DNA of 64,000 nt, taken from Nitrosopumilus sp. GTDB taxonomy: Archaea > Thermoproteota > Nitrososphaeria > Nitrososphaerales > Nitrosopumilaceae. Made by a program: the position numbers and the translations under genes. The stretch lies in contig OZ244732.1 of the NCBI GenBank assembly GCA_965219345.1, positions 224,001 to 288,000 on the forward strand, read 5' to 3'. Below, piece by piece: positions 32,333-49,918 of this stretch; position 1 is the first letter of the stretch; each line of letters starts with the position of its first letter. The notes under the pieces were generated by a model. It saw only the letters and a program-made list of their open reading frames with translations. It was not told the DNA's origin and made no database searches.

Positions 32333-32911
32333 CTATCTTCCTTTTATTGCAAAGTCCTTTCTAAGTGGAGGCAAGTCTGCCCAATCTTCTGGCAAAAGCA
32401 ATCTTCTATTATCAGGATGACCTTCAAAGTAAACGCCAAACATTTCAAAAACTTCCCTTTCATGAAATTCCACGCTATAGAATACATCTCTAAGAGTGGG
32501 AAGTTTGGTTGCATCATTTCCAGGAATTGGATTTTCTTCCCGTTGGGCTCTGGTAGATAAAGCAAGAATTTGTCTTGCTAATGAAGGGTCTGAGTAAGAA
32601 CCTATATGATAAACAACTTCAATTTCTTTGTCTTGTGGATAATCTACGCCTGAAACAGACTCTACATGATCATAGTTTAATGCATCACGAATGAATTCTG
32701 CAACATCATGCACATTTTCACGACTAACATTAATTCCAATTCTGTCTTTTTTTACAAATGCAATTTCAGCTTTATCACCAAATTTTTCAATGATTTTATC
32801 GGAAATGCCCTTCTCAAACTCCGGTAATTCAGCTGATTTTTCTTCTGGTTTTTTTACTACGGGTTTAGCTTCAGGTGTTTCCTCTGTAGGCTTTTCAGAA
32901 TCCGAACTCAT
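32333..32911 (-). CDS. nuoC: Complex I subunit C
   Basis: EREVFEMFGVYFEGHPDNRRLL...PLRKDF. Confidence 0.95.
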   Translation of the reverse strand: MSSDSEKPTEETPEAKPVVKKPEEKSAELPEFEKGISDKIIEKFGDKAEIAFVKKDRIGINVSRENVHDVAEFIRDALNYDHVESVSGVDYPQDKEIEVVYHIGSYSDPSLARQILALSTRAQREENPIPGNDATKLPTLRDVFYSVEFHEREVFEMFGVYFEGHPDNRRLLLPEDWADLPPLRKDFAIKGR

Positions 32912-33145
32912 TATACAAAGTCCTAGTCGTCATACATTTTAGCGTTTATTTGGGATTTTACATATACAAAAGATCGATATTTGGTAAAATCTGTCATTTT
33001 ATCATATATTATAACATAATAGTACCAGATTTCACTATTAAAATTTACTCTAATTAGGAATTATCTAATCTGGAGGGTCAGATTCATTCTAGGTGAGAAT
33101 GGATTCTCAAATGTTACATCTGATCCAAAGATAATTTCAGAATCA

Positions 33146-34036
33146 TTGAATTTAGTAATGAGTGGAATGTCTTACAGAAATATTGCACGACACGTTGAGA
33201 CAGTTCACCAAATCAGGATTATCCATGTATCTGTGAATAACTGGATAAAGAAATACACCGAATTAATCAAAAACTATGTAGGTTCTTTGAATCCTGAATT
33301 AAGTGATGTTTGGTCTTTAGATGAGATGTATCTTAATGTCAAGAACATCAAAAAGACAGGCAAGGGATTTCACGATTGGCTTTGGAGTATCATTGACCCT
33401 AAAACCAGATTCTTGATTGCCACAGAAGTCTCAAAGAAGAGGGAAATTTCAGATGCAAGAAAGATTATTGCTAGTGGCAAGAAGATAGTAACACAGAATC
33501 CAAACTATGTATTGACTGACTGTCTTAATTCCTATCAAGAAGCAATCAGAAAAGAGTTTGAAAACAAGACTGCACACATCAAGACAAAATCACTAAAGGA
33601 TGGATTCGTGAACAGACCTATTGAAAGATACCATAATGAGATAAGAGAAAGACTCAAAGCTAGACGTGGATTGGGAAATGATGAATCAGCACAGACATTC
33701 TCAGAGTTATTAAAAATCAATCACAACTTTGTCAAACCTCATGAAGGATTAGATGGTAAAACACCAGCTCAATCAGCAGGAATTAATCTTGATCTTGGTG
33801 AAAACAAGTATCTTGATTTGATAAAATTGTCTGGATCTAAAGTGAACTTTGTAAACAATCTAGGGAAGCGAATCAAGAAGGTTATAATAATCAATGAAGG
33901 TGATTCAATCAGAATTTCACCTAGAGATTGGATTGACAAGCAGATTTGGAGAGAGATTAACGACATTTTGAAACTGCATCAATTCAGCTGGCTCTCAAAT
34001 GGAAAAGATAGTTGTTGGCTTAAGATGAACTCTTAA
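33146..34036 (+). CDS. IS6-like DDE transposase/integrase (probably 5'-truncated)
   Basis: HTH (GMSYRNIA...WIKKY), WSLDE, WLW.IID.KTRFL, LTD, N.PIERYH.EIRER, HN..KPH.GL.GKTPA. Confidence 0.85.
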   Translation: MNLVMSGMSYRNIARHVETVHQIRIIHVSVNNWIKKYTELIKNYVGSLNPELSDVWSLDEMYLNVKNIKKTGKGFHDWLWSIIDPKTRFLIATEVSKKREISDARKIIASGKKIVTQNPNYVLTDCLNSYQEAIRKEFENKTAHIKTKSLKDGFVNRPIERYHNEIRERLKARRGLGNDESAQTFSELLKINHNFVKPHEGLDGKTPAQSAGINLDLGENKYLDLIKLSGSKVNFVNNLGKRIKKVIIINEGDSIRISPRDWIDKQIWREINDILKLHQFSWLSNGKDSCWLKMNS

Positions 34037-34235
34037 TTCTGTTGTTAAAATACAGCGCCCAGCTAATAATCTGTGCAATTGTGCCAATTACAATTAATCC
34101 GAGACCAAACCGTACTCCAACATCACTAGAAACAGATGCTAAAACATCCAGGTATGATGATCCAAGATAGAGAATAACCCCAAGAAAAATAACTGCCAAA
34201 GTCTTACTCTCTGGAATTTCAGGAATCTTCACCAT
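34020..34235 (-). CDS. Small two-TM membrane protein
   Basis: 71 aa with two hydrophobic segments. Confidence 0.55.
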   Translation of the reverse strand: MVKIPEIPESKTLAVIFLGVILYLGSSYLDVLASVSSDVGVRFGLGLIVIGTIAQIISWALYFNNRIKSSS

Positions 34236-34268
34236 GGTTTATTTGCTATCATACCATGCTTAATATCC

Positions 34269-34378
34269 ATGTCCCTAAATGAACACTTTACCTAAATGTC
34301 CCGAGTTTGGAACAGTGTACAAAACAAGACACCGTTCAATATACGGAACATTTGAGAACAGTGTTCAATTAGGGACAT
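34269..34378. repeat. 110-bp imperfect palindrome built from TGTYCC...GAACA units
   Basis: ATGTCCCTAAATGAACACT (34269-34287) matches the reverse complement of 34360-34378 at 18/19; inner arms are also related. Confidence 0.75.
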
Positions 34379-34530
34379 AAAATGTTAAATTTATTACTTT
34401 GGTCAAAACTAGGCGGATTTTCAACTGATGGTAAGTTCGGATGATTGGTGTTAAGTTAGGGTGGTCACTAGACGTGTGTGGCTAGTGTGAATTCTACAGA
34501 GTGGTAGTTATCGAGTGTTAAATTGTTAAG

Positions 34531-34824
34531 TTAGTGTACTGTAGGTTTGCACTTGCTACATGGCTTAGCATTTGGATACTTGATCATTATTTCTTTGATG
34601 GTATCATAATGCCAATATTGTTGTTTGTTTTTGTTACCAAGATTCATTTCACCAACAGTGCCATATCTTTCTTGATGTAGACGTTGTAAATTCTTACATG
34701 AAGTAAAATGAATTTTGGTTTTCTTTTCTATAGATTTTTTGGGCATGTGTATGACAATAAACCCTTTCATCTTCTTGTATGCGGTTTTAAGATCGCCACC
34801 TGTTAATAATTCCTCTTTTGGCAT
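34531..34824 (-). CDS. Small basic protein with putative Zn-binding H..C / CxxC motif
   Basis: KIHFTSC...PCSKCKP. Confidence 0.6.
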   Translation of the reverse strand: MPKEELLTGGDLKTAYKKMKGFIVIHMPKKSIEKKTKIHFTSCKNLQRLHQERYGTVGEMNLGNKNKQQYWHYDTIKEIMIKYPNAKPCSKCKPTVH

Positions 34825-35048
34825 GTTATGGGTTAAACCAAGCTATAAAAAAATCAGGCGATCAGCTTAAACCAGCAACTATCTTTCCCATTGGATAACC
34901 AGCCAAACTATAAGGTCTTTGAATATCGGTTCTGTAAAGTCTAGGGTTGCTTTTTTTCTGTAAAGATCGGTTGTTATTCAACTTATAATATGAAGTTTAA
35001 ATTAACATATGAATTCAATCAAAACACTCAAAGATATTTTATATTATG

Positions 35049-36034
35049 CTATGATCTTGACGAACACATTTTATCATAATCAGCACGTTCAAAAACAAGA
35101 TCATGTGAAAGAACTCATTTATATGCAGTTCCATTGAGAAGGTATGGTTTATCATGGCCTTCTTTGACTTGAACAACAACTATTATTCCATCATCAGTTG
35201 AAACATGCTAAAAATTAAAATCAATAAGAGGTTTACAATGATGTTCAATTAGGTGTTGGATTCTTGTATCTAATGATTTTAGTTCCTCATTTTTTATTCC
35301 AATTGTGGTTTGATTATCATAAACACCTAATAAGATTGAACGCCCTTTGTGTTTGCAAAAGATACAATACTTTCTAAAAAATCATTAGGCTTTTTGCCAA
35401 TTTCTACTTTAAATTCAACTTGTTCATTTTCTCCCTTTGCAATCATTTCAACAACATTTTCTTTGGATGTTCTTATTTGTACGCCATCATATCTATCACT
35501 ATGCCATCTGCCAAAAGATTTTAGATCAAGTATGTCGTTAGACGATTTTTCAATAAGATAACAATCAATTGTATCTGGAACAACAGAAACTTCTATCTCA
35601 CACATATTTTCTCTATTTAACTCTAAATTCTTGGAATTAAAGAATTGTTTTTTATTATTTGTGAAAAAAGTTTTCACGACTAACTCATCCGAAGAAATTT
35701 CTCGAGTTTCTATCTACATGATAATCTTATTTTTAGAAGTTATCATAGTTTTGATTTTTACCCTATAATCTGGTAGAAAAATTGCTAATTGTAATGGTGT
35801 ATTTTGAGGTGTAATGATTTCTGTTTCCATGAATGCAGAGATTGCATTATTTACACTAGGAAAAGCTAGCAGATTGCTATTTTTGACACATTCTACATCA
35901 TTTTCTTCAATGTTTGGGAAAAATAAATGTCCAATGCTGCTATTTGCACAATTGTTAAGCAACATAATGAGAATATCTGTATCAGATGAGAAAACCCTAA
36001 GTGTAGATTTTTCGGGAGCATATTTGAATCTCAA
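35049..36034 (-). pseudogene. Decayed gene with a C-terminal Schlafen/AlbA_2 domain
   Basis: GENEQVEFK...IVSFANTKG, then after a frameshift ILLGVYD...CKP...VQVKEGHDKPYLLNG with in-frame stops; 35714-36034 is a probable upstream piece. Confidence 0.75.
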
Positions 36035-36231
36035 CTTTAAGGATAAAGTTGCCAGTCAATGGCATGATAAAATAACAGAAATTTTAAAATAAGATTTTCA
36101 GACACGTCTTAAATTAAATTTAGGTTTCAGATTGAAACCACTTCGAAAATTAAGATTCTTTTCTGAAACAAGTCTTTCATAAATTATGTTCTTTAGAAAT
36201 TATAAAACAATAGTATGTTGTAATAATTACA

Positions 36232-36945
36232 ATGATAAACAAAACAATTATCATTCCCGATATCCACAATGATTATCTCACAGCAGAAAAAATAATCAAA
36301 AAGGAAAATCCATACAAAATAATATTTCTAGGAGATTATTTTGATGACTTTGATGATACAGTACAAGATGCAATAAACACTGCAAAATGGCTTAAAGAAT
36401 CACTAAAACAAGAAAATAGAGTGCATCTGATTGGAAATCATGACCTGAGTTACATGACGGATAACCCTAATCTCAAATGTATGGGATATAGAACTGACAA
36501 ACACAAAGCAATCAAAAAGCATTCTATTGACTGGACCAAACTCAAAATGCATTATTTCATTGATGAGAAATGGTTGTGTACACATGCAGGATTTTCAAAT
36601 GATTTTCTCAAGCAACAACATACAAAAAAATCAGATTCAGTACAAAAAGTGTTAGATTACTCAAAAAAAGATTTAGAGAAAATTGATGATGAAAATTATA
36701 CTCATTCATTCTTTCAAGTAGGATTTATTCGTGGAGGCTCAAATGTAGTGGGCGGTCCTTTATGGTGCGATTATGGTGAATTTGTGGATGTTCCAAGAAT
36801 AAATCAAATTTTTGGACATACTCCAAATCATGTTGTTCGTCATCGTAAAACTAAGAATTCTGAGCATTATTGCATAGATACAAAATTGAGACATTATGTA
36901 GTATATCAAAACGGGATGATGCTCATGAAAGAACAATCAGGATGA
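36232..36945 (+). CDS. Calcineurin-like metallophosphoesterase
   Basis: All five motifs present: DIH, GDYFD, GNHD, HAG, GHT. Confidence 0.9.
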   Translation: MINKTIIIPDIHNDYLTAEKIIKKENPYKIIFLGDYFDDFDDTVQDAINTAKWLKESLKQENRVHLIGNHDLSYMTDNPNLKCMGYRTDKHKAIKKHSIDWTKLKMHYFIDEKWLCTHAGFSNDFLKQQHTKKSDSVQKVLDYSKKDLEKIDDENYTHSFFQVGFIRGGSNVVGGPLWCDYGEFVDVPRINQIFGHTPNHVVRHRKTKNSEHYCIDTKLRHYVVYQNGMMLMKEQSG

Positions 36946-37287
36946 GTTAATGAGAAAACTGTAATTGTCACCATGTTGTCAATAACAAAGAAATACAAAT
37001 CTGCCAAGATTTGATCACAGAAGAGTGTTGAAGCAATCACATGAATCTCTATGAGAGTTTCAAATTAATAATGTGGGACTCTGAGGGCATACAATTATTT
37101 GCTGTAAAATAATTTCAAACAAATCTCTCAAGAGAGATCATAGGAGTGTTCAAATCTCAAATGTACCAAAACAAATCTGTGAGAAAGATTTAGTCGTTAT
37201 AGCACTGCAATCGGGATCAAATTTTAAAAAAACAATGGAAATAATGTCATCACATTTACTTATAAAATTGAGAATCAAATCTAGAGT

Positions 37288-38784
37288 ATGAGTAATAGTA
37301 AGAAAGGAGGGGTTGTAATTAACAACGAACTAACTGATCCTTTAGGGGATTTTGTGATAGACTATCTCCTGGCACAAACAAAGGAGACAACTTATCATGA
37401 TTTTAAAGCGACACTTGACACGAGTAAAAATTCCAATGACATTTCCAAAATCATGAAAGACGTGTATGGGTTTTCAAACGCTGGTGGGGGTTTTCTTGTT
37501 TTAGGAGTACATGAAAACGATCATCTTACTGAAGACATCAAAGGCACATTTGCAAAACTTGGCCTTCCAGACGATTTTAAAATAGATCAAGCAACACTGC
37601 AAGAAAAAATCAATTCACATCTTGGAGACACTCCACTAAGTATAGGTTTTACAGAGTTTACAAGAAAGTTTTATGGCAAGGAGAGAAGATTTGCATTGGT
37701 GTATATTCCACCGTCTCCAAAAATACTAATTACTTCAAAAGATAGAATATACAAAGAGGGAGAGAAGGAGAAAACGGCCTATCACAAAGATACGATTTAC
37801 ACTAGAAGAGGCACTCAAAGCATTCCTGCACGGGAATATGAAATTGAGCAAATCAAAGAACGGATAAAAAATGAAAAATACAGACTGTCCATAATTAGCG
37901 GAGAGCCTGACGATGTAAAAGAAACTCTTTACAGCAATATATTCAAAGTCAAAAGTTTACCATCTACAGTTTATGTCGGAATTGCAAAATATTCTTCATT
38001 TAGTGAAACAATTAATGCATTAAGGGAAAAACATCCTGATGATAGACACTTTGATTTGCGATATATGTCATATGAAGATAAGATAGTATCTTTCCAAAAT
38101 CTGGAAAATCAAAGTAATATCAATCATGAATTAGTTGAAGAAGGTAGTGTTCATAAGGAATCTCTTGACAAATGGCTAGATGATGAAAACAGAGGGAAAA
38201 TTATCATTGCTCTTCTAAACAAGGAAGTAAATGCACATGCATTACGACAGAGAATGCATCAAGATGATAAAAGAAGGTTGTTTTATCCGGCATCAGCAGA
38301 CTATCGTTCTGAATCATGGCCAACTAGATACAAAGGGATTCAGAAAAAACAAGTGGCTAAATTAATATGGGCAGAACAACTAAAACACAAAGTCTATGCA
38401 CATGCAGCAATAAGACTCACAATTACAAAACTTCATGAACAATTTTACTTGAGAATAAACCTAACAATGGTAATTACAGATGATGGAAGACATGTTTCAA
38501 AAGATTCTAGATCAGGAACAATAATTACAAGAAGTTCTTATAACAAGTACAACAACAGTTATCTTAACAACATTCTATTTTGGATAAGCAAACTTGGCGA
38601 TGGTAAAGATCTTTTCATAGTACGAGATTTTGTTATCTCAAATGAACCAGTTCAAATCAACATAAACACAGGAATCAATTGGGACATTCCAACATCAGAT
38701 CTGAAAAGATTCATCGAAGAGTATGATGCAGAAGGAGAGGAAGAAGATGAAGAACCAGAAGAGGGGGACCAATATGACCTCTAA
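37288..38784 (+). CDS. Schlafen/AlbA_2-APAZ fusion protein (short-pAgo partner/effector)
   Basis: N-terminal KETTYHDFK...KDVYGFSNAGGGFLVLGV...YTRRGTQS (AlbA_2); C-terminal KETLYSNIFKVKSLP...HAAI...ITDDG...YNNSYLNNILFWISKL (APAZ pattern); overlaps the pAgo start. Confidence 0.82.
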   Translation: MSNSKKGGVVINNELTDPLGDFVIDYLLAQTKETTYHDFKATLDTSKNSNDISKIMKDVYGFSNAGGGFLVLGVHENDHLTEDIKGTFAKLGLPDDFKIDQATLQEKINSHLGDTPLSIGFTEFTRKFYGKERRFALVYIPPSPKILITSKDRIYKEGEKEKTAYHKDTIYTRRGTQSIPAREYEIEQIKERIKNEKYRLSIISGEPDDVKETLYSNIFKVKSLPSTVYVGIAKYSSFSETINALREKHPDDRHFDLRYMSYEDKIVSFQNLENQSNINHELVEEGSVHKESLDKWLDDENRGKIIIALLNKEVNAHALRQRMHQDDKRRLFYPASADYRSESWPTRYKGIQKKQVAKLIWAEQLKHKVYAHAAIRLTITKLHEQFYLRINLTMVITDDGRHVSKDSRSGTIITRSSYNKYNNSYLNNILFWISKLGDGKDLFIVRDFVISNEPVQININTGINWDIPTSDLKRFIEEYDAEGEEEDEEPEEGDQYDL

Positions 38785-40321
38785 TTTTGAGACAACGTAC
38801 ATAGCAGAGCCTGATTTGGTGTTTGGAAATAAAGGAGAAGACAAGGATCCTAGATTAGGTCTAAAATATCACGGCCCATACTTTTACTCTACTGAAGATT
38901 CGCCTTTGGAAAGTGTGCGCATAGGAATAATTGGCAATAGTGAATGTACAGAAATGGCAGAAAAAATCATCAAATTAATTCAAGATCCTGTAAAAAGTCC
39001 AAAACCAAACCATTGGTTGTTTCCAGATTATCCTGGAATGAATAAGGATAGTCCATTTAGATGTAATCTAATTGCAGATCCTAACTGGAATGCCTCTCTA
39101 TCCGATGACTATGATCTAAGCAAAATAGAAAAAACCATGACAAACATGAATGAAAGAATTGCATACGGTGTAAATCTGTATGCAGACAAAGTTGAACAAA
39201 TCAAAAGTGGAGACAACATACCAAATGTAATTATTTGTACACTTCCAAAAATCGTGGAAAAATATTGTGGAATATCCGAATTTACTCGAGGTGCAAAGAA
39301 AATTATGTTGACAAAATTAGAAAAAGACATCATGGTAATGAAAGAAAAAGGACAGTCCTTTCTTACTGAATGGGGAGTGGAAGTAGCAGAAGATAAAAAA
39401 ATTAAGGAGAAAAGTTATGACTTTAGAAACTCACTAAAAGGTAAAGTGATGAAGCATGGAATCCCAATACAAATTATTAAAGAAAGTACAATGCATCAGA
39501 TTTTAAATTATGCATCATTGAGAAAAATTCAAAAAGAAAATCCAGCTGCATTTAGTTGGAATTTTAGTACTGCACTATACTACAAGGCAAATGGAAAGCC
39601 TTGGAGATTAGCAAAACTACGACAAGACACTTGTTATGTTGGAATATCATTTTTTGTAGATAAACTTCATCCCAAAAAAGAAATTCAAATTTCTATGGCA
39701 CAAGTGTTCACACATAATGGTGAAGGCCTTGTACTTCGAGGCTCGGAAGTGGAAATAAATGAACATATAAGGCAACCATGTTTGAAAAAGGAGCAAGCAA
39801 ATTCTTTGATGAAGCGTGCATTAGCAAAATACATTAAAAAAACAAAGAGCAATCCATCCAAAGTTGTAATTCACAAGTCATCTACATTTTCTCAAGATGA
39901 ACAAGATGGATTCAACGATGCAATCTATGAGTTAGGTAATGTGCAAAAGGATTTTGTTGCAGTTAGATCTACGTATTCTTGGGTTAACTTTTTGCGTCTA
40001 GGAAGTTTCCCGGTTCTCAGAGGAACCATGATTGACATTGACAAGAATGAATTCTTACTGTATACATCTGGATATTCACCTAGAATTCGTTCCTACGCAG
40101 GACATCGAGTTCCAAATCCACTTAGAATAATCCACATAGGGGATTCTAGTAAAGTAGAAGTTGCAACAGAGATTCTAGGTTTGACCAAACTTAACTGGAA
40201 CACCACTTCATTTTCCACACACTCGCCCATTACCATTAGATTTGCAGAAGGAGTTGGAAGAATCTTATCCGAGTTAAAAGATGATAAAGATTTACAGGAT
40301 CATTATAGGTTTTTCATGTGA
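38774..40321 (+). CDS. Short prokaryotic Argonaute (MID-PIWI, catalytically inactive)
   Basis: EPDLVFG...DPRLGL..HGP; MID R-x3-K...Q...YYKA.GKPW; PIWI CYVGISF and VVIHKS lack the catalytic Asp residues; EILGLTKLNWN...PITIRFA; start ATG 38774 after GAGGGGGA. Confidence 0.93.
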   Translation: MTSNFETTYIAEPDLVFGNKGEDKDPRLGLKYHGPYFYSTEDSPLESVRIGIIGNSECTEMAEKIIKLIQDPVKSPKPNHWLFPDYPGMNKDSPFRCNLIADPNWNASLSDDYDLSKIEKTMTNMNERIAYGVNLYADKVEQIKSGDNIPNVIICTLPKIVEKYCGISEFTRGAKKIMLTKLEKDIMVMKEKGQSFLTEWGVEVAEDKKIKEKSYDFRNSLKGKVMKHGIPIQIIKESTMHQILNYASLRKIQKENPAAFSWNFSTALYYKANGKPWRLAKLRQDTCYVGISFFVDKLHPKKEIQISMAQVFTHNGEGLVLRGSEVEINEHIRQPCLKKEQANSLMKRALAKYIKKTKSNPSKVVIHKSSTFSQDEQDGFNDAIYELGNVQKDFVAVRSTYSWVNFLRLGSFPVLRGTMIDIDKNEFLLYTSGYSPRIRSYAGHRVPNPLRIIHIGDSSKVEVATEILGLTKLNWNTTSFSTHSPITIRFAEGVGRILSELKDDKDLQDHYRFFM

Positions 40322-41271
40322 GGTGTTATGAATTGACAATACGTTCACATTTTGTTCCACAGTTTTACCTGAAAAATTTTGGTGATAAAATCTACTTCTA
40401 TGACAAAACAACAGGGGACATAAAAGAAAGTAATGCATCAAACATTGCACTAAAGAAAGACTTCTATGGTCCTACTGATGAAAATAAATCCAATCCTGTT
40501 GAAACATCCATGAGTCAACTTGAAGGAAATGCAAATGCTGTAATCAGCAAAATTATTGATACTCTTGACTATGTCAAACTTTCTAAGAAAGAAAAGATTG
40601 ATTTTTGTTCTTTTGTTGCATTACAGTATCTTAGAACACAAGAAACAAGAATGCGCATTATACAGTCTGCTAACAAACTTTTTGATGAGATTGCAAAACG
40701 TAAAGAAGTAACTGACGCTGAAATAAGACATACAAAAGAAGGTGAGACAGGAGCACATCGTAACATAATGAAAGAATTCGACCCAATTTCAGCAGCACTT
40801 GGCCAGATGGGAGTTCTGGTTTGTTCAAACAGTACAAAAATTCCACTATGGACTTCGGACAATCCAGTCAATCTACATAATGAGTTTGATCAATTCCCCT
40901 TTGGGAATCTGGGCATTGTGTCAAAGGGAATAGAAATACACATTCCACTTTCTCCTACAGTAAAAATTGCATTCTTTGATCCAATTACATTCAAGAAAGA
41001 AATGCTGCCTGAATTATTTACAATGGAAGAAGCACAAGTTATTCATTCTAATCATCTTCAGACTTCGTGGTCTACTAGATTCATGTTTTCAAATACTGAC
41101 AAATTTTTTATGGCTGATAAGTATCTAAAAGCAAACCCTGAATCAAAGAATGTGGACCGAGAAAGACTAAGAACAGGAATTCGTGAATTAAAACCTGCAG
41201 ATTTTGAAGGTAAAGAATTCCACAAAAGACCGGAGTTTTGGATGGATCCTGAAATATTTGACAAGTTATGA
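40318..41271 (+). CDS. DUF4238-domain protein
   Basis: HFVPQFYLKNF N-terminal motif, E..MSQLE, F.ALQYLRT, WTSDNPV, PLSP; abuts pAgo stop (likely start TTG 40333 after GAGGTG). Confidence 0.85.
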   Translation: MRCYELTIRSHFVPQFYLKNFGDKIYFYDKTTGDIKESNASNIALKKDFYGPTDENKSNPVETSMSQLEGNANAVISKIIDTLDYVKLSKKEKIDFCSFVALQYLRTQETRMRIIQSANKLFDEIAKRKEVTDAEIRHTKEGETGAHRNIMKEFDPISAALGQMGVLVCSNSTKIPLWTSDNPVNLHNEFDQFPFGNLGIVSKGIEIHIPLSPTVKIAFFDPITFKKEMLPELFTMEEAQVIHSNHLQTSWSTRFMFSNTDKFFMADKYLKANPESKNVDRERLRTGIRELKPADFEGKEFHKRPEFWMDPEIFDKL

Positions 41272-41304
41272 GACAAAGAAGATTAGAATTTTTACATATT
41301 ATAG

Positions 41305-42042
41305 TCACATAAGACTCATAAAATCTTCCAAGTTTTCTTTTTCATAATCCATATCCCCTTCAAGTTCAGTTAGATCATTCATTACAAATTCCACCATCTC
41401 TTTGAATGTGGATAAAGAATTGAAATATTTCAAAAAATCATTTTTGTCTTGGAGCGATGGTGTATCTTTTGTAGTGTAGGGGTATCTGAATCCGTCTGAA
41501 TTTTTATCTAGGTTTTGGAATTCTTCAATTATTAAACAAGTTTCATCGCTCAATCTTTCTGACTCAACTAGATTCTTCAAATTGCTTAACAGTTTGTCGA
41601 TGTCATGAGTTAATCCAAAATGACCTCCCTTGTGTAAAATAAGCCCTTTCAATTTTATTTCAATGTAATGTCTAAACAAAAATGATAATGGCGCAATTCC
41701 ATAATCATGTTCAGAAAGTAAAAGAACATCAGGACATACATCACGGATTATTTCTTTTTGTATTTCTTCATCAGTTTTTTCAAAATTTATCATGAGAGAT
41801 TTTAATGCTGATTTGTATACTTCCCCATAAGCAAGATAGTTTAGAGCTTTGTCAGGACTCAAATAAATGCCTGTAGCAAAATGACGTTCTTGCATAGTAG
41901 TACATATTGTCATCATCCTAAAAAGGTTAAAAATTATCTGAGATTGTATATTTTTTGTTCTATATTTACCGTACAAAGTAATCGTATCCTTCCTTGAGAT
42001 GTATTTGATTGGTTTTTTGACTTGCTTTATTTGATAATCCAA
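41305..42042 (-). CDS. HEPN-like helical protein
   Basis: PLSFLFRHYIEIKLK...THDIDKL...DKNSDGFRYP pattern; start uncertain. Confidence 0.6.
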   Translation of the reverse strand: MDYQIKQVKKPIKYISRKDTITLYGKYRTKNIQSQIIFNLFRMMTICTTMQERHFATGIYLSPDKALNYLAYGEVYKSALKSLMINFEKTDEEIQKEIIRDVCPDVLLLSEHDYGIAPLSFLFRHYIEIKLKGLILHKGGHFGLTHDIDKLLSNLKNLVESERLSDETCLIIEEFQNLDKNSDGFRYPYTTKDTPSLQDKNDFLKYFNSLSTFKEMVEFVMNDLTELEGDMDYEKENLEDFMSLM

Positions 42043-42169
42043 TTAAAAATTTAATGAATTTTAGTGGTTTAACTGTGTAAAAAACATTATCTCTTCCTTC
42101 ACGTGTGTTAAAAATATTTTTTAATTCAACTTTTGCCTCATTATTGAATGTGAAATCAATTATTGATGG

Positions 42170-43020
42170 TACTTTGACTTTACCACCTTGTGTCTTTTCT
42201 GACCTGGCTTTAGTGAGGGCCTAAGACCGCAAGATTTGCCAAGTTTTCTCATTCCTGCATATACTCCACCTTTACCCATCCTTACAGGTTTTATTGTTCT
42301 AACAGATACAATCAGAGGATCCGTACCTTTTGGTTATGACATGAATCTGTCTTTCCATTCTTCTTTGTACAATAACAGGTAAGAGCCAGCTTCTGATGTA
42401 AAATTGGTCCAGTATTCTTCATCATCTCCTCTGTATATACAAGGTGCGCCCCCTTGAGTACCATCTTTATTGTAGAAAAATACCACGTCACCCCGGATAA
42501 AACAATCCCAAGCCTCCACTCTAAAACCTACAGAAGAGCACAAGGTTATGATTATTTTATCAGCTGTATCTGTTGCCTTTTTCATGATAGCTGCAGCCGT
42601 GGTCCGGTGCAGGCCCTGTCTTGTGATTTGCCGTCCTTTGGAATGGAGCGATCTAGCTTCTTCCGGGAAAAGTCAATATCATTTGCAGCAAACAATGCCT
42701 TGATTGGCTTTATGAGATTTCTTACCCTTGCAGGTGAAATTATCTTGTTTTCAATTTTCTTTTTTAGCTCCCTGACATATGCATTGATAATTGCCTTTCC
42801 GACAGATACATTTTGGCCTGCTAACTTGCAAGATCATCTGGCCTGATTTTGGGGGGTCTTTGCCAGTTACTAGGATCTGATTATCCACGCATATCTGCCA
42901 AGGTATCAGTTCTAGAAACTTTACAGGATCTCCTTGGTAGTTTCTTGGGGTTTTTTCATTTCCGATATGGTCAATAAAATTTTGATATGCTGGTGCTCTG
43001 TCTCTCTTCTAGCTGCAATC
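42170..43020 (-). pseudogene. Tyrosine integrase pseudogene at island 2 right junction
   Basis: Pieces across frames: AYVRELKKKI...SPARVRNLIKPIKALFAANDIDFS...SQDRACT, then DKIIITLCSSVGFRVEAWD...YRGDDEEYW.NFTSEA; truncated before HxxR; ends approximate. Confidence 0.75.
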
Positions 43021-43060
43021 CATACTGTACGTTAGAAAAAACATCTATTTTGGCGATTGA

Positions 43061-43588
43061 CTAGTATGAAAGCTTCCTAGCCTTCATTCTCTTAATTTTC
43101 TCTTGCAGCAAGATACATCCTTGTATGAGAGTTTCGGGTCTGGGTGGGCATCCTGGAACATAGACATCAACTGGAATTACTCCGTCAATTCCTGGAAGTA
43201 CATTGTATGAGTCAAAATACAGTCCTCCAGTAATTGCACAAGCTCCCATAGCAATTACATACTTTGGTTCTGGCATTTGATCATAAACTAATCTGAGACG
43301 TGGTGCCATTTTTCTTGTAATAGTTCCTTGAACAACAACTAGATCACATTGTCTAAGTGATCCAAATGCTTCAATGATGCCAAATCTTTCAACATCATAT
43401 CTGGGACTTGATGCTGCACCAAATTCTACACTGCAGCAAGCTGTTTCAATGTGGACAGGCCAGAGTGACCAAATTCTACCCCAGTTGATGGCGTAGCCCA
43501 ACGGTTTACCGATTGCTCTTTCTAAGATGTCTCCTAACTTTCCTACAAAGACATTTGCGTTTTCTGGCGTTACCAAGTCTTTAAGCAA
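43061..43588 (-). CDS. nuoB: Complex I subunit B
   Basis: TACCSVE, RQCD, MGACA..GG, DVYVPGCPPRPE. Confidence 0.96.
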   Translation of the reverse strand: MLKDLVTPENANVFVGKLGDILERAIGKPLGYAINWGRIWSLWPVHIETACCSVEFGAASSPRYDVERFGIIEAFGSLRQCDLVVVQGTITRKMAPRLRLVYDQMPEPKYVIAMGACAITGGLYFDSYNVLPGIDGVIPVDVYVPGCPPRPETLIQGCILLQEKIKRMKARKLSY

Positions 43589-43628
43589 TCTTATCCCTTA
43601 TCCTAGTAATTATAATTGATATAAAAAA

Positions 43629-44003
43629 CTACCATATTCTTCGTCTCCCTGACTGATACAATGCGAATGCCATTGCTCCAAACATTATAGCTAAGAATCC
43701 CATCATAGGCAAAGTAGCACTCTTTGGAAGTTCCAAAAGAGAACTTCCCCATGCATACAAGAAAATTGCCATGACATCAAAGACTACAAACATCAGAATG
43801 TAGGGATAATACTGCATCATAAAGTGAGTTCGTCCTTCTCCTGATGGAACCTGGCCACATTCCATTGGCAAAAACTTGACAGGATTACTTCTTTTTCTTG
43901 GTGAAATCATTCTTGAAATTACTAATGCAGGTGCCATCGCTGCTATGCCAAAGGCAAACATCAGTACTACGGTACTATAATTGCCCGCTAATTCCCCGAC
44001 CAA
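43629..44003 (-). CDS. nuoA: Complex I subunit A
   Basis: PMECG, QYYPYILMFVVFDV; start placed at TTG 44003, 25 nt downstream of a TATA box. Confidence 0.92.
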   Translation of the reverse strand: MVGELAGNYSTVVLMFAFGIAAMAPALVISRMISPRKRSNPVKFLPMECGQVPSGEGRTHFMMQYYPYILMFVVFDVMAIFLYAWGSSLLELPKSATLPMMGFLAIMFGAMAFALYQSGRRRIW

Positions 44004-44027
44004 TTTAGCTATTGACCCTAATTTTTG

Positions 44028-44035
44028 TATATAAT
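44028..44035 (-). promoter_or_regulatory. Putative TATA box of the nuoAB promoter
   Basis: ATTATATA on the minus strand about 25 nt upstream of the TTG start, consistent with a leaderless archaeal promoter. Confidence 0.55.
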
Positions 44036-44084
44036 TCAATCGTTTCAGGCACATTTATAGCACATTATAGTAGATATTAGAGAA

Positions 44085-45921: not shown

Positions 45922-48666
45922 ATGAGACCTGAAGACAGTGCACGCCAAGAAATTGACAAAATGTTGATTGATTCAGGCTGGATTATCCAAGATTATGAGG
46001 ATAGAAATCTTAGTGCTGGATTGGGCATAGCAGTAAGAGAATACCCTCTAAATAAGGACAATGCAGATTATGCACTATTCATTGATTCGCAACCTGTAGG
46101 AGTAATTGAGGCAAAAAAGTATGGCCATACACTTAGTGGAGTAGTTGAACAATCTGAAAAATATCTTGATGGACTATATGAAAAATTTACAAATGCCCCC
46201 ATAAGACCTCCATTCTCATATGAGACAACAGGAATTGAAACTAAATTTGCAGACAGACGTGATCCAAATCATCGCTCACGCTATGTGTTCTCATTTCATC
46301 GTCCAGAATTATTACAGGCATGGCTTAAAGAAGAAGAAACATTACGTGCGAGATTAAAGGATATTCCAAAACTAGACTATGAAAAACTTTGGAATTGTCA
46401 AACAGAGGCAATCACAAATCTAGAAGATTCTTTTGCGCAGAATAATCCACGTGCGTTAATCCAGATGGCAACGGGTTCAGGTAAAACATTTACCGCAGTA
46501 ACTTCAATTTATAGACTGATAAAATTTGCAAAAGCAAAAAAAGTTTTGTTTCTAGTTGACAGATCTAATTTGGGCAGACAGGCATTACGTGAATTTCAAC
46601 AGTATCAAACCCCTGATGATGGACGGAAATTTACTGATTTGTATAATGTACAACTGTTACAATCACATACAATTGATCCCATATCTAAAGTTGTAATATC
46701 TACAATTCAAAGAATGTTTTCAGTTCTAAAAGATGACAAAGACTATGTGGAAGAAAATGACGAGTTTTCTGTATATGAGGAAAATTCTGATGAAACTCCT
46801 GTAGATGTAAAATATAATGAAAATATTCCAATTGGTGAATTTGATTTTATTGTAATTGACGAGTGCCATCGTTCCATCTACAACAAATGGAAACAGGTAT
46901 TGGATTACTTTGATTCATTTCTAATTGGATTAACTGCAACTCCTTCAAATGATACCATAGGATTTTTCAAGAATAATCAAGTGATGAGATATACTCATGA
47001 GCGAGCGATAGTTGATGAGGTAAACGTGGGATATCATGTATACAGGATTAAAACCAAAATTAGTGAGCAGGGTGGCGGTGTCGATGCAGGTCAATTTGTT
47101 GAAAAGCGTGATAGACTTACACGTGAACAAACAGCAGAAAAATTAAATGAAGACCTAATTTTTACCAGAGAAGAATTAGATAGATCTATAGTAACAAGGG
47201 ATCAGATCAGACTAGTTGTTAGAACATTTAAAGAGAAATTACCTGAGATCTTTCCAAACAGAACAGAGGTTCCTAAGACCCTGATTTTTACAAAAAATGA
47301 TTCTCATGCCGAAGATGTTACAGAAATTGTTCGAGAAGAGTTTGGATTGGGAAACAATTTTTGCAAAAAAATCACATATCGTAGTACAGAAAAACCCGAA
47401 GAATTGATCTCTAGTTTTAGAAATTCCCCAATGCCACGAGTTGCAGTGACAGTAGATATGATTGCAACTGGAACTGACATCAAACCGCTAGAATGCATTA
47501 TATTTATGCGAGATGTAAAGTCTAAAAACTACTTTGATCAGATGAAAGGCCGTGGCACTAGAACCATTAAACCTGATGATCTAATTGCAGTTACACCTGA
47601 TGCAAAAGCTAAAACTCATTTTGTAATAGTTGATGCAGTAGGTGTATGCGAACATTCCATGAGTGATACTCATTCATTATTTAGAAAACTAAATGGGTCA
47701 TTTAAGATACTTTTAGACAAGGCAGTTGACAAAAATGCAGATACTGAAGACATTGAAAGCTTGGTGTATCGCTTATCTAGATTAAATAGAAAATTAAGCC
47801 AAGAAGATAAAGATGAAATTACTAATGCAAATAATGGGAAATCACTTACAAATATAGAAAAAACATTACTTGATGGAATTGATTCTGATAAAATACTAGA
47901 AAAGGCAAAAGGACAATTTCATACTTTAGAGCCAACTACTGAGCAAATTAAAAAAATATCAAAACAGATGATTGATGAGGCATGCAAAGTATTCGATTCT
48001 GCAAAACTGCGTAAAACAATTCTTGATATCAAAAGCAAAAATGAGCAAATCATCGATGATGTATCAATTGATGAATTACTCGAAGCAGGATTTTTAGATA
48101 AAGTACAAAATATTGACAAAAAGACTATTGAAAACTGGACTCTATTCATTGAGAAGAACAGAGATCAGATTACAGCACTTGATATTATTTACTCAAAACC
48201 ATACAGGATGAGGGAGATTACATTTTCAGATATCAAGAATTTGGCACATGCCATTGAAAAACCTCCATACAATCTAACTTCTAGGATTCTTTGGAATGCT
48301 TACCAAAGACTAGATAAATCCAGAGTAAAGAGCAATCCAGTTAAGATGCTGACTGATTTGATTTCACTTGTACGTTATTCATCTGGAAAAGAGGAGTCAT
48401 TGTTGCCATTTTCAGAAATTATACATGAAAAATTTGAGAAATGGCTTACTCAACAAGAGTCTTCTGGACGCCAGTTCACATCAGAACAAAAGGAGTGGCT
48501 TGTAATGATCAAAAATGCCGTTGCAAGTTCTGTTTCAATTGAGATAGATGCACTCGATGATGTTCCATTTAATCAAAAAGGTGGCAGAGTAAAGTTTTAT
48601 GAGATATTTGGAGATGAATATGAGAAGATTTTAGATGAATTACATGAGGTGTTGATTAATCAATGA
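45922..48666 (+). CDS. hsdR: Type I restriction enzyme R subunit
   Basis: ADYALF...IEAKK nuclease motif, MATGSGKT, DECHRS, GLTATP, TGTD, QMKGRGTR. Confidence 0.95.
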   Translation: MRPEDSARQEIDKMLIDSGWIIQDYEDRNLSAGLGIAVREYPLNKDNADYALFIDSQPVGVIEAKKYGHTLSGVVEQSEKYLDGLYEKFTNAPIRPPFSYETTGIETKFADRRDPNHRSRYVFSFHRPELLQAWLKEEETLRARLKDIPKLDYEKLWNCQTEAITNLEDSFAQNNPRALIQMATGSGKTFTAVTSIYRLIKFAKAKKVLFLVDRSNLGRQALREFQQYQTPDDGRKFTDLYNVQLLQSHTIDPISKVVISTIQRMFSVLKDDKDYVEENDEFSVYEENSDETPVDVKYNENIPIGEFDFIVIDECHRSIYNKWKQVLDYFDSFLIGLTATPSNDTIGFFKNNQVMRYTHERAIVDEVNVGYHVYRIKTKISEQGGGVDAGQFVEKRDRLTREQTAEKLNEDLIFTREELDRSIVTRDQIRLVVRTFKEKLPEIFPNRTEVPKTLIFTKNDSHAEDVTEIVREEFGLGNNFCKKITYRSTEKPEELISSFRNSPMPRVAVTVDMIATGTDIKPLECIIFMRDVKSKNYFDQMKGRGTRTIKPDDLIAVTPDAKAKTHFVIVDAVGVCEHSMSDTHSLFRKLNGSFKILLDKAVDKNADTEDIESLVYRLSRLNRKLSQEDKDEITNANNGKSLTNIEKTLLDGIDSDKILEKAKGQFHTLEPTTEQIKKISKQMIDEACKVFDSAKLRKTILDIKSKNEQIIDDVSIDELLEAGFLDKVQNIDKKTIENWTLFIEKNRDQITALDIIYSKPYRMREITFSDIKNLAHAIEKPPYNLTSRILWNAYQRLDKSRVKSNPVKMLTDLISLVRYSSGKEESLLPFSEIIHEKFEKWLTQQESSGRQFTSEQKEWLVMIKNAVASSVSIEIDALDDVPFNQKGGRVKFYEIFGDEYEKILDELHEVLINQ

Positions 48667-49889: not shown

Positions 49890-49918
49890 TAAAAAAAGGA
49901 AAACTGATTTTTGATCAA

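What the first reader, a model, noticed from the sequence alone, without database searches (positions are those of the whole stretch)
37288..41271. Short prokaryotic Argonaute operon with a Schlafen/AlbA_2-APAZ effector in an ammonia-oxidising archaeon
Seen: three tightly coupled, uninterrupted ORFs. (i) A 498-aa protein whose N-terminus has the AlbA_2/Schlafen signature (E-x4-DFK...FSNAGGGFLVLGV...YTRRG) and whose C-terminus matches APAZ patterns. (ii) A ~515-aa MID-PIWI Argonaute lacking N/PAZ, with an R-K-Q-K 5'-phosphate pocket and a dead catalytic tetrad (GISF, IHKS). (iii) A DUF4238 gene. Established: short pAgos heterodimerise with APAZ partners and activate the fused effector on guide-directed target recognition (TIR in SPARTA, SIR2 in SPARSA, DNases in SPARDA), and Schlafen core domains are tRNA/rRNA endoribonucleases. 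Inference: a guide-programmed sensor that unleashes an RNase (probably a tRNase) to arrest translation on virus or plasmid invasion. Schlafen-like domains have been noted near pAgos in comparative surveys, but I know of no experimentally characterised Schlafen-APAZ/short-pAgo system, least of all in Thaumarchaeota. The operon is intact while neighbouring genes are decayed, which suggests selection.
Basis: partly seen in the sequence, partly recalled or inferred. Interest (0 to 1): 0.93.

Follow-up and report, generated by a model that had tools for sequence, protein, structure and literature searches.

The report
Schlafen-armed short Argonaute defence operon
An ammonia-oxidising archaeon carries an intact two-gene Argonaute immune module whose predicted weapon is a Schlafen-type RNA-cutting domain, a combination listed in surveys but apparently not yet tested at the bench.

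Summary
37288-38784 encodes a 498-aa protein with an N-terminal Schlafen/AlbA_2 domain (Pfam 6e-12; invariant E-x4-D-x-K) and a C-terminal APAZ region (PADLOC 1.5e-25; Foldseek to SPARHA/SPARDA APAZ). 38774-40321 encodes a 515-aa MID-PIWI short pAgo with an (R/H)-K-Q-K pocket and no catalytic aspartates. 40318-41271 encodes a DUF4238 protein.

The core system is the first two genes. A pAgo follows the SLFN-APAZ gene in 24 of 24 assessable related loci. In 3 Thorarchaeota loci the two are one ORF. DUF4238 is near none of 22 loci, and the homology to a same-genus copy stops at the pAgo stop codon.

Best reading (about 0.6): a guide-directed abortive-infection system whose Schlafen RNase, probably a tRNase, is switched on by target-induced oligomerisation. 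A conserved acidic C-tail probably acts as a plug, as in SPARTA.

Novelty is overstated. Schlafen/Alba-APAZ partners are listed in surveys. A fused SLFN-pAgo and two other prokaryotic Schlafen systems were shown in 2026 papers and a preprint to cleave tRNA. I found no characterised SLFN-APAZ/short-pAgo system.

The family is almost wholly archaeal and rare (7 of 401 genomes of the class). It is a new variant of a known kind; interest 0.5.

The parts
37288..38784 (+). SLFN-APAZ gene (498 aa): effector plus adaptor subunit
   Evidence: ORF. Pfam PF04326 and PADLOC PNTD1-PNTD2. AlphaFold2 model has mean pLDDT 81.3. 85 relatives found. dN/dS 0.16-0.22 against L001-L003 (dS is saturated, so the values are rough).
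37384..37830 (+). Schlafen/AlbA_2 nuclease domain (residues 33-181)
   Evidence: PF04326 E 6e-12. The domain model has pLDDT 86.8 and pTM 0.81. VIA-align gives Z 10.8 (3lmm, AlbA_2 protein), 10.2 (SAMD9 tRNase domain) and 7.0-8.2 (SLFN5/11/12/13/14). The first unrelated row scores 4.4. In Foldseek the first 35 ranks are all SLFN/AlbA_2/SAMD9 entries.
37384..37407 (+). Predicted active-site motif E33-x4-D38-x-K40
   Evidence: Invariant in 35 of 35 and 23 of 23 sequences. The profile alignment puts E33/D38 on CbCash RETRKVDLK (E17/D22), on SLFN14 ESTHVEFK and on SLFN13 ESASIEFK. The motif is defined as catalytic in PMC13056530 (passage).
37897..38679 (+). APAZ (N-L1-L2-like) region, residues 204-464
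   Evidence: PADLOC Aga_REase-PNTD1-PNTD2 E 1.5e-25. The family profile against PDB sequences hits the SPARHA HNH-APAZ chain 9om4_A at E 4.6e-27 and SPARDA DREN-APAZ chains at 2e-8 to 1.5e-5. Foldseek: 9om4_A E 1.4e-15, TM (target) 0.74; 9vx1_E TM 0.84.
38716..38781 (+). Acidic C-terminal tail (residues 477-498); predicted autoinhibitory plug
   Evidence: The last 30 residues hold 15 D/E against 2 K/R here. Net charge is -5 or lower in 33 of 35 family members. pLDDT is below 50. The function is inferred from the SPARTA acidic C-tail (10.1101/2023.07.12.548734, passages).
38774..40321 (+). Short pAgo (MID-PIWI, 515 aa): guide-loaded sensor
   Evidence: PADLOC pAgo_I E 1.9e-141. phmmer against PDB: SPARDA 9jsb_A 3.7e-67, SPARDA 9qbp_B 4.9e-63, SPARHA 9om4_B 3.2e-56, SPARTA chains 1e-53 to 4e-49. 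Start codon. dN/dS 0.09-0.15.
39425..39586 (+). MID 5'-end pocket residues R218, K222, Q233, K271 (numbering of the 515-aa form)
   Evidence: K222, Q233 and K271 are invariant and position 218 is R or H in 22 of 22 aligned pAgos. The C-terminal HY(R/K/M)F(F/Y)M end is conserved.
39638..39883 (+). PIWI positions where active Argonautes carry catalytic aspartates: YVGIS292F and VIH367-K368-S369
   Evidence: Position 292 is S or A, and H367-K368 are invariant with no acidic residue, in 22 of 22 sequences. These stretches align with SPARDA pAgo CYVGISF and VFILKTS. That these are the tetrad positions is recalled knowledge plus the SPARTA substitution list in 10.1101/2023.09.17.558117 (passage).
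40318..41271 (+). DUF4238 gene. Probably co-transcribed, but an accessory or independent defence gene and not part of the conserved system
   Evidence: PF14022 E 6.5e-41. It is the only copy in the genome. No homologue lies within 7 kb of 22 related cassettes. The family HMM is found in 2 of 22 cassette-bearing genomes, and away from the cassette. DNA homology to G036 ends at 40319.

Best explanation
This is a two-gene short-pAgo abortive-infection system with a Schlafen RNase as its effector.

Shown by sequence or structure prediction:
- The short pAgo keeps a guide 5'-end pocket and has lost the slicer residues.
- Its partner has an APAZ body of the SPARDA/SPARHA/SPARTA type.
- The partner's N-terminus is a single-lobe Schlafen/AlbA_2 domain with an intact E-x4-D-x-K active-site motif.
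- The partner ends in a conserved acidic tail.
- The two genes are always adjacent and are sometimes fused.

Inferred by homology with solved short-pAgo systems:
1. The two proteins form a 1:1 heterodimer, and the APAZ region completes the nucleic-acid channel.
2. The pAgo loads small 5'-phosphorylated guides, probably RNA derived from abundant invader transcripts.
3. The acidic tail sits in the channel until a guide-target duplex, probably with ssDNA as target, displaces it.
4. Duplex binding drives Ago-Ago oligomerisation into tetramers or filaments.

Inferred from RzAgo and CbCash:
5. Oligomerisation pairs the single-lobe SLFN domains into composite two-lobed nucleases.
6. These cut tRNA with a divalent metal, stop translation, and arrest or kill the infected cell.

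DUF4238 is a separately acquired defence gene stacked on the same transcript.
For: Domains and motifs:
- Domain calls.
- APAZ fold. SLFN fold.
- Active-site motif invariant in 35 of 35 sequences and aligned to experimentally validated catalytic residues: with passages.
- pAgo pocket kept and catalytic aspartates absent in 22 of 22 sequences.

Gene linkage:
- A pAgo lies directly downstream in 24 of 24 assessable loci. It is complete in 21, cut by the contig end in 2 and broken in 1.
- Among the window and 21 loci, the two genes are one ORF in 3 and overlap or lie within about 25 nt in 19.
- Fused proteins P0111 (981 aa), P0101 and P0089 each carry both halves.

Other support:
- Acidic tail in 33 of 35 members, and its demonstrated role in SPARTA.
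- Purifying selection, dN/dS 0.09-0.22.
- The nearest solved pAgos are SPARDA and SPARHA, which activate by filament formation.
- Argonaute-licensed SLFN tRNA cleavage has been demonstrated for RzAgo.
- Defence-island setting: IS element, HEPN gene and type I R-M system.
- Patchy distribution: 7 of 401 genomes of the class.
Against: - Nothing here is biochemical. Guide type, target type, oligomeric state and RNase substrate are all borrowed from relatives that share only 15-21% identity in APAZ and 12-18% with the mammalian Schlafen nuclease domains.
- The third acidic residue of the mammalian SLFN site corresponds to E76 here. That position varies within the family.
- Ryazansky et al. 2018 annotated this domain as DNA-binding.
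- The same cassette is a pseudogene in the one other close same-genus carrier, G036. Its SLFN-APAZ has 2 stops and its pAgo is split into two frames. Loss is therefore tolerated.
- No RNA run was available to show expression.
Confidence: 0.6

Rival explanations
1. Same sensor, different output. The SLFN domain is a collateral nuclease acting mainly on rRNA, mRNA or single-stranded DNA, as SPARDA's DREN domain acts on many substrates, rather than a tRNase.
For: - CbCash also cut 16S rRNA in vitro (passage).
- Mammalian SLFNs cleave rRNA as well as tRNA, and some bind DNA (7cux and 7ksp titles).
- The closest pAgos belong to DNase-linked systems.
- The structural matches to AlbA_2/SAMD9 (Z about 10) are stronger than those to the SLFN11-14 tRNases (Z 7-8).
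Against: All three prokaryotic SLFN systems read here (RzAgo, CbCash, RorSlfn5) cleave tRNA in cells or in vitro through the same motif. The best-matching SAMD9 domain is itself titled a tRNase domain.
Confidence: 0.2
2. Three-component system. DUF4238 is a functional partner, either a second effector or a regulator, of the pAgo complex in this lineage.
For: The pAgo stop codon overlaps DUF4238's first possible start by 4 nt, or lies 11 nt before the next one, so co-transcription and translational coupling are likely. It is the only DUF4238 gene in the genome.
Against: - No DUF4238 lies within 7 kb of 22 of 22 other cassettes.
- The family HMM hits only 2 of 22 host genomes, and elsewhere in them.
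- The G036 cassette homology ends exactly at the pAgo stop.
- DUF4238 works alone against T7 in E. coli.
Confidence: 0.1
3. The AlbA_2 domain is a non-catalytic nucleic-acid-binding module. It would help capture guides or targets, and the system would act by sequestration or through an unlinked effector.
For: It is annotated as a DNA-binding domain in Ryazansky et al. 2018. Some mammalian SLFNs lack catalytic residues (passage). The fold also matches Alba-type DNA/RNA binders weakly, at Z 3-4.4.
Against: E33, D38 and K40, together with K57, N64, the G66-G68 loop and R173-R174, are invariant across 35 sequences down to 33% identity. That pattern is what is expected of an active site.
Confidence: 0.05
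4. The locus is an inert, recently acquired passenger on its way to decay, with no present function in this strain.
For: The G036 copy is broken in both genes, and G021 keeps only a 53-aa remnant. The surrounding island holds an IS element and a decayed SLFN gene.
Against: All three frames are intact over 3.98 kb. Key residues are unchanged. dN/dS is well below 1 along the lineage.
Confidence: 0.05

Closest known systems
SPARDA and SPARHA (short pAgo with DREN/DUF4365-APAZ or HNH-APAZ)
   Same: - Two-gene layout with the effector at the N-terminus of APAZ and a dead MID-PIWI pAgo.
- These are the nearest solved pAgos (9jsb 3.7e-67, 9om4_B 3.2e-56).
- They also hold the nearest APAZ (9om4_A profile E 4.6e-27; TM 0.74-0.84).
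- The likely logic is the same: guide plus target leads to oligomerisation and effector activation.
   Different: The effector here is a Schlafen/AlbA_2 RNase domain, not a PD-(D/E)xK or HNH DNase. No DREN or HNH domain was detected. The predicted damage is to RNA, and so to translation, rather than to DNA.
SPARTA (short pAgo with TIR-APAZ)
   Same: - The pAgo/APAZ chassis is shared.
- A conserved acidic C-terminal tail follows APAZ.
- Other ammonia oxidisers of the same class carry TIR-APAZ plus a pAgo of the same PADLOC model.
   Different: The effector is SLFN, not a TIR NADase. The window pAgo is only 36% identical to those TIR-linked archaeal pAgos, against 44-76% to SLFN-linked ones.
SLFN-pAgo (RzAgo, Kuzmenko et al. 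2026 preprint, 10.64898/2026.05.29.728809)
   Same: An Argonaute sensor is coupled to a single-lobe SLFN nuclease. In RzAgo, target DNA recognition licenses tRNA cleavage and abortive infection. The preprint says its clade II SLFN domains are distantly related to those of APAZ proteins of short pAgos.
   Different: RzAgo is one extra-long polypeptide with a GHKL ATPase that drives ATP-dependent tetramerisation. Here there is no GHKL domain, the pAgo is short, APAZ is the adaptor, and the system has two subunits (one chain in Thorarchaeota).
Cash (Csx15-Schlafen, type III CRISPR; PMC13462974) and bacterial pSlfn (PMC13056530)
   Same: The SLFN domain shares E-x4-(E/D)-x-K, the FxN-GGG-LxxGV loop and the RRG motif. 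These systems are demonstrated tRNases activated by oligomerisation or a trigger protein.
   Different: The sensor there is a cA4-binding Csx15 domain or an Ig-like or other sensor domain, not a guide-loaded Argonaute.
DUF4238 single-gene defence (Rousset et al. 2022, PMC9122126)
   Same: The third gene matches PF14022 over the whole model.
   Different: The match to the PADLOC DUF4238-Pers model is only weak (E 0.0013). Its position behind a pAgo is unique to this window among the loci examined.

Membership tests
Short pAgo / APAZ-effector systems (class I; SPARTA, SPARSA, SPARDA, SPARHA kind) | The Argonaute has only MID and PIWI domains, with no N or PAZ | tested here: met
   The protein is 515 aa and covers the whole 455-position pAgo_I model. 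It aligns end to end with 471-541-aa solved short pAgos.
Short pAgo / APAZ-effector systems (class I; SPARTA, SPARSA, SPARDA, SPARHA kind) | The PIWI domain lacks the catalytic DEDX tetrad | tested here: met
   S/A292 and H367-K368-S/T/K/L369 stand where aspartates are expected, in 22 of 22 sequences. The assignment of positions rests on alignment to SPARDA pAgo and on recalled knowledge. The second and fourth tetrad positions were not mapped.
Short pAgo / APAZ-effector systems (class I; SPARTA, SPARSA, SPARDA, SPARHA kind) | The MID pocket for the guide 5' end is intact | tested here: met
   (R/H)218, K222, Q233 and K271 are conserved in 22 of 22 sequences, and the C-terminal end is conserved. 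That these four residues form the pocket is recalled, not computed.
Short pAgo / APAZ-effector systems (class I; SPARTA, SPARSA, SPARDA, SPARHA kind) | An APAZ-containing partner is encoded beside the pAgo, with the effector domain at its N-terminus | tested here: met
   for APAZ. for the N-terminal SLFN domain. Adjacency in 24 of 24 assessable loci. Fusions in 3 loci.
Short pAgo / APAZ-effector systems (class I; SPARTA, SPARSA, SPARDA, SPARHA kind) | Heterodimer formation and guide/target-dependent activation | not testable with these tools
   The heterodimer was not modelled. The natural single-chain fusions argue for association. Activation needs biochemistry.
Schlafen/AlbA_2 nucleases (PF04326) | Pfam match above the gathering score | tested here: met
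   46.6 bits against 25.3, covering 117 of 118 model positions.
Schlafen/AlbA_2 nucleases (PF04326) | C-lobe-type fold | tested here: met
   VIA-align Z 10.8 (rmsd 3.6, 145 aligned) to 3lmm and Z 10.2 to the SAMD9 tRNase domain. Z 7.0-8.2 (113-131 aligned) to residues about 165-350 of SLFN5/11/12/13/14. The next unrelated row scores 4.4.
Schlafen/AlbA_2 nucleases (PF04326) | Catalytic E-x4-(E/D)-x-K motif | tested here: met
   E33, D38 and K40 are invariant in 35 of 35 sequences. They align to the motif in CbCash, SLFN13 and SLFN14. The motif is defined in PMC13056530.
Schlafen/AlbA_2 nucleases (PF04326) | Third acidic pocket residue (D252 of SLFN11) | tested here: inconclusive
   The aligned position is E76 in the window but varies (E/Q/P/K and others) in the family. 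The preprint reports that mutating D252 of SLFN11 enhances rather than abolishes activity.
Schlafen/AlbA_2 nucleases (PF04326) | Metal-dependent tRNA/rRNA endonuclease activity | not testable with these tools
   Needs an assay.
SLFN-pAgo (extra-long pAgo with a 'Schlatpase' module) | SLFN plus GHKL ATPase fused to the Ago core in one polypeptide | tested here: not met
   No GHKL/HATPase match in the 498-aa protein at E up to 0.1. The genes are separate, and the pAgo is of the short class I type.
SPARDA / SPARHA | DREN (DUF4365) or HNH nuclease domain on APAZ | tested here: not met
   Only PF04326 is found N-terminal of APAZ. The matches to the REase, SIR2 and TIR PADLOC models are confined to residues 170-484, the APAZ part.
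DUF4238 defence gene as part of this system | Conserved linkage to the SLFN-APAZ/pAgo pair | tested here: not met
   0 of 22 loci by BLAST within 7 kb. The HMM hits 2 of 22 genomes, away from the cassette. Absent from the G036 copy.

The most novel reading that the evidence does not exclude
This is an archaea-centred branch of short pAgo systems whose output is RNA damage rather than NAD+ loss or DNA damage. Target recognition expels an acidic C-tail and assembles pAgo/APAZ units, so that single-lobe Schlafen domains pair into composite tRNases and shut down translation. It would be the first RNA-directed effector shown for a short pAgo and the first mechanistically defined Argonaute defence in ammonia-oxidising archaea. 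Single-chain SLFN-APAZ-pAgo versions occur in Asgard (Thor) archaea, which joins two immune modules that eukaryotes also kept.
Probability: 0.45. Interest if true: 0.7.

Novelty: new variant of a known kind. Interest (0 to 1): 0.5.

Why it matters
Short pAgo systems characterised so far kill by NAD+ depletion (TIR, SIR2), DNA degradation (DREN, HNH) or membrane damage (SiAgo). A Schlafen-APAZ version would add translation arrest by RNA cleavage to that list. It would also show that the same Schlafen effector has been wired to Argonaute twice, once by APAZ and once by direct fusion with a GHKL ATPase.

The family is almost entirely archaeal. It therefore gives a handle on antiviral defence in ammonia oxidisers and DPANN/Asgard lineages, where experimental knowledge is thin.

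Practically, a guide-programmable RNase switch could serve nucleic-acid detection in the way SPARTA and SPARDA have.

The value is tempered. The architecture is already catalogued, and the closely analogous SLFN-pAgo mechanism is already in a preprint.

Tried and rejected
- Complex prediction on two copies of the SLFN domain (alignment A2): 'no answer', score 0.00 against a mark of 0.42, and the controls were not run. This is neither support nor evidence against.
- phmmer of the N-terminal 200 aa alone against PDB sequences gave only chance-level rows (best E 0.32, unrelated proteins). The family profile was needed to see CbCash and the SLFNs.
- The look-up of sequencing runs listed no RNA holder. 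The 5 runs that hold the stretch are kept as contigs of unstated kind, so read laying was not used and expression is untested.
- A search for any conserved third gene found none. All-against-all BLAST used 219 neighbouring ORFs from the window and 22 loci. The largest cross-locus cluster covered 4 loci, 3 of them near-identical Methanoperedens-type contigs.
- Considered and rejected: the upstream Metallophos gene and the convergent HEPN gene as system parts. Neither has a homologue near other cassettes, and neither has a meaningful PADLOC match (best E 0.01 for Metallophos, none for HEPN).
- A TATA-like TTATAAAA at 37260-37267, 20 nt before the ATG, was read by eye. In a 32-34% G+C region this is weak, and it was not tested against chance.
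- Placing the pAgo in the published S1A/S1B/S2A/S2B tree was not possible, because reference sequences could not be fetched. The only placement is by PDB scores and a 25-row tree with three non-SLFN archaeal pAgos. That tree cannot by itself prove monophyly.
- Supplementary tables of Ryazansky 2018, Koopal 2022, Taboada 2026 and Kuzmenko 2026 were closed. They may already list this clade.

Full report
**1. What is there**

Three uninterrupted, same-strand ORFs lie at 37288-38784, 38723/38774-40321 and 40318-41271.

- The first two overlap. The ATG at 38774 sits 11 nt before the upstream TAA, just after a G-rich stretch. Homology to other pAgos starts only at residue 22 of the longer form, so the 515-aa form is the likely product.
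- The pAgo TGA overlaps a GTG at 40318. The next in-frame start is a TTG at 40333.
- The host genome (1.91 Mb, 2 contigs, 99.5% complete) encodes archaeal AmoA, so it is an ammonia oxidiser.

**2. The SLFN-APAZ protein**

- Pfam gives a single hit, PF04326 SLFN_AlbA_2: E 6e-12, residues 33-181, 117 of 118 model positions.
- PADLOC models of APAZ-bearing Argonaute partners match residues 170-484 only. These carry REase, SIR2 or TIR fused to PNTD1-PNTD2; the best E is 1.5e-25.
- A profile of 35 family members hits the APAZ parts of SPARHA (9om4_A, E 4.6e-27) and SPARDA chains. In its N-terminal part it hits CbCash (E 1.5e-4) and, weakly, mammalian Schlafens.
- The full-length AlphaFold2 model has pLDDT 81.3. 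In Foldseek it returns only APAZ-bearing chains of SPARHA, SPARDA and SPARTA at the top: E 1.4e-15, with target TM up to 0.84; 93 matches have E <= 0.001.
- The N-terminal 200 residues were folded alone (pLDDT 86.8, pTM 0.81). They match AlbA_2/Schlafen/SAMD9 structures exclusively in the first 35 Foldseek ranks.
- VIA-align on that domain gives Z 10.8, 10.2, 9.9 and 9.5, then 7.0-8.2 for the C-lobes of SLFN5/11/12/13/14. The next, unrelated row scores 4.4.
- Residue-level profile alignments put E33-x4-D38-x-K40 on RETRKVDLK of CbCash and on the E-x4-E-F-K of SLFN13 and SLFN14. E17/D22 of CbCash and the equivalent pair in RorSlfn5 are required for tRNA cleavage (passages). Taboada et al. define Ex4(E/D)xK as the catalytic motif.
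- E33, D38, K40, K57, N64, G66, G68, G73, R173 and R174 are invariant in 35 of 35 sequences, down to 33% identity.
- The position equivalent to the third acidic residue (E76) is not conserved.
- No GHKL ATPase is present.

**3. The pAgo**

- It covers the whole class I short-pAgo model (E 1.9e-141).
- By sequence it is nearest to SPARDA pAgos (3.7e-67, 4.9e-63, 1.2e-57). SPARHA follows (3.2e-56), then SPARTA (about 1e-53 to 4e-49), and 8in8 lies far behind (1.4e-25).
- In an alignment of 22 SLFN-linked pAgos, (R/H)218, K222, Q233 and K271 are conserved, and so is the C-terminal HY(R/K/M)F(F/Y)M.
- No aspartate stands at the YVGI(S/A)F or VIHK(S/T/K/L) positions.

**4. What belongs to the system**

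A scan of one genome per species returned 38 loci.

- 25 loci carry a match of 295 aa or more that includes APAZ, or runs off the contig end.
- 1 locus (L025) holds a 121-aa remnant.
- 12 bacterial loci share only the SLFN domain.
- Of the 25, 24 have DNA downstream, and all 24 have a pAgo next: 21 complete, 2 cut by the contig end, and 1 (L014) in two frames. L021 ends inside the first gene.
- In the window and 18 loci, the first gene's stop lies between 16 nt after and 22 nt before the start of pAgo homology.
- In the three Thorarchaeota loci the two genes are one ORF of about 960-980 codons.
- Three database proteins (P0111 of 981 aa; P0101 and P0089, both truncated) likewise carry both halves.
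- No other gene recurs. Among 219 neighbouring ORFs, the largest cross-locus cluster spans 4 loci. None contains the window's DUF4238, Metallophos or HEPN genes.
- The DUF4238 HMM finds the family in only 2 of the 22 host genomes, at places that are not the cassette.
- In the one close same-genus copy (G036), DNA homology of 76-82% identity runs from 37300 to 40319 and stops. The mobile unit is exactly the two genes.
- A DUF4238 protein is by itself an anti-T7 defence gene in E. coli (PMC9122126, passage). I therefore read the third gene as a stacked, probably co-transcribed, independent defence gene.

**5. Distribution and selection**

- The word-indexed search found 85 clusters at 90% identity, 80 of them annotated with PF04326. 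All 9 organism names given are archaeal.
- The exhaustive profile search gave 2656, 872 and 109 representatives at E 1e-3, 1e-10 and 1e-30. Of the best 150, 38 span both domains. The rest are fragments or APAZ proteins with other N-termini.
- Named loci come from Nitrososphaerota, Methanoperedens/ANME-1, Thermoplasmatota, Bathyarchaeia, DPANN groups, Archaeoglobus and Thorarchaeota. One contig, 68% identical to the window protein, is binned as a gammaproteobacterium. It groups with the window in the pAgo tree and may be mis-binned.
- Within the class, 13 of 401 sampled genomes (G000 included) match. Seven have SLFN plus APAZ: 6 intact and G036 broken. Six have APAZ only.
- Of three APAZ-only genomes inspected, two are TIR-APAZ plus pAgo and one has an unannotated N-terminus.
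- The window pAgo is 44-76% identical to SLFN-linked pAgos and about 36% identical to these three.
- In a first draw of the genus, 1 of 36 other genomes had a near-complete copy and 1 had a 53-aa remnant.
- dN/dS against three relatives is 0.16-0.22 for SLFN-APAZ and 0.09-0.15 for the pAgo. dS is saturated, so the values are rough.
- Overall the system is rare and patchy, under purifying selection where it is kept, and lost by decay elsewhere.

**6. Mechanism**

Steps shown here are the domain identities, the intact active-site and pocket motifs, the dead slicer site, the obligate gene linkage and fusions, and the acidic tail.

- The last 30 residues are strongly acidic in 33 of 35 members (net charge -5 to -14). 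They often end in Y/F-D/E-F/L.
- In CrtSPARTA such a tail occupies the guide-target channel and represses the effector until it is displaced (passages). I infer the same plug here.
- From SPARDA/SPARHA (filaments) and SPARTA (tetramers) I infer target-induced oligomerisation.
- RzAgo and CbCash have single-lobe SLFN domains that become active only when paired in higher-order assemblies. From them I infer that oligomerisation builds the active nuclease, and that tRNA is the substrate.
- Guide and target chemistry (RNA guide, DNA target) is inferred only from the nearest solved relatives.

**7. What is known**

- Schlafen/Alba is listed among APAZ-appended domains (10.1101/2023.07.12.548734, passage).
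- Ryazansky et al. 2018 record an APAZ orthogroup (og_40) with SIR2_1 fused to a Schlafen domain. They treat the Schlafen/AlbA_2 domain as a DNA-binding domain in other pAgo-linked proteins (passages).
- Kuzmenko et al. [quoted passage not shown] They say these are distantly related to their clade II (passages).
- Searches for SLFN-APAZ and its variants found that preprint only (1 paper).
- Searches combining Schlafen with APAZ or short pAgo (48 papers, 25 listed) and Schlafen with Argonaute from 2024 (43 papers, 30 listed) turned up no characterisation of this pair.
- An August 2026 review names only SPARDA, SPARTA and SPARSA for short pAgos (passages).
- I read passages, not whole texts, and supplements were closed.

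**8. Verdict**

DUF4238 should be dropped from the system, and the novelty claim lowered. This is an uncharacterised effector variant of a well-understood class. Its logic has a close precedent in the fused SLFN-pAgo.

- the almost wholly archaeal distribution;
- the Asgard single-chain fusions;
- the conserved acidic tail;
- the evidence of effector swapping (TIR against SLFN) on related chassis among ammonia oxidisers.

Noticed in passing
window 32333-44054: The complex I (nuo) operon is split. nuoC (32333-32911, -) and nuoB (43061-43588, -) are 10.1 kb apart, and the whole defence island sits between them. The island holds an IS240-type transposase, a decayed SLFN gene, a Metallophos gene, SLFN-APAZ/pAgo/DUF4238 and a HEPN gene. 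In five same-genus genomes the nuoB-nuoC gap is 5 nt (G010, G021), 0.66 kb (G002), 2.1 kb (G018) and 3.65 kb (G036). The junction therefore looks like a recurrent insertion spot inside an essential operon.
   Followed up: partly
window 35121-35677 (-): A second Schlafen/AlbA_2 gene, with its own E-x4-E-F-K motif, is broken by a frameshift and a TAG stop. It is not a paralogue of the APAZ protein: tblastn of SLFN-APAZ against the window finds no second hit.
   Followed up: partly
window 45922-54215: A second island lies just past nuoA. It is a type I restriction-modification system (hsdR 45922-48666, hsdS 48663-49889, hsdM 50220-51704 on the minus strand, a second hsdS 51694-53145 on the minus strand) followed by a phage-integrase-family gene at 53220-54215. 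This is an arrangement typical of invertible specificity-subunit (shufflon-like) loci.
   Followed up: no
window 41305-42042 (-) and 36232-36945 (+): A HEPN-domain protein (E 1.3e-6) lies convergent to the operon, and a calcineurin-like phosphoesterase (E 2.4e-10) lies upstream. Neither is linked to the cassette elsewhere. Both are plausible separate defence or toxin genes.
   Followed up: partly
L022, L023, L024 (Thorarchaeota contigs): SLFN-APAZ and the short pAgo are fused into one ORF of about 960-980 codons. These three form a well-supported clade (100/100) in the pAgo tree.
   Followed up: yes
L001 (contig titled uncultured Gammaproteobacteria): This is the closest genome-collection relative of the cassette (68% and 76% protein identity). 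It sits in a bin labelled bacterial, yet it groups inside the Nitrososphaerota clade of the pAgo tree. That suggests either a mis-binned contig or a recent transfer.
   Followed up: no
L049, L050 (G366, G156) and L051 (G083): Other archaea of the same class carry TIR-APAZ plus a short pAgo (SPARTA-like). One carries an APAZ protein with an unannotated N-terminal domain of about 125 aa that has no Pfam match.
   Followed up: partly
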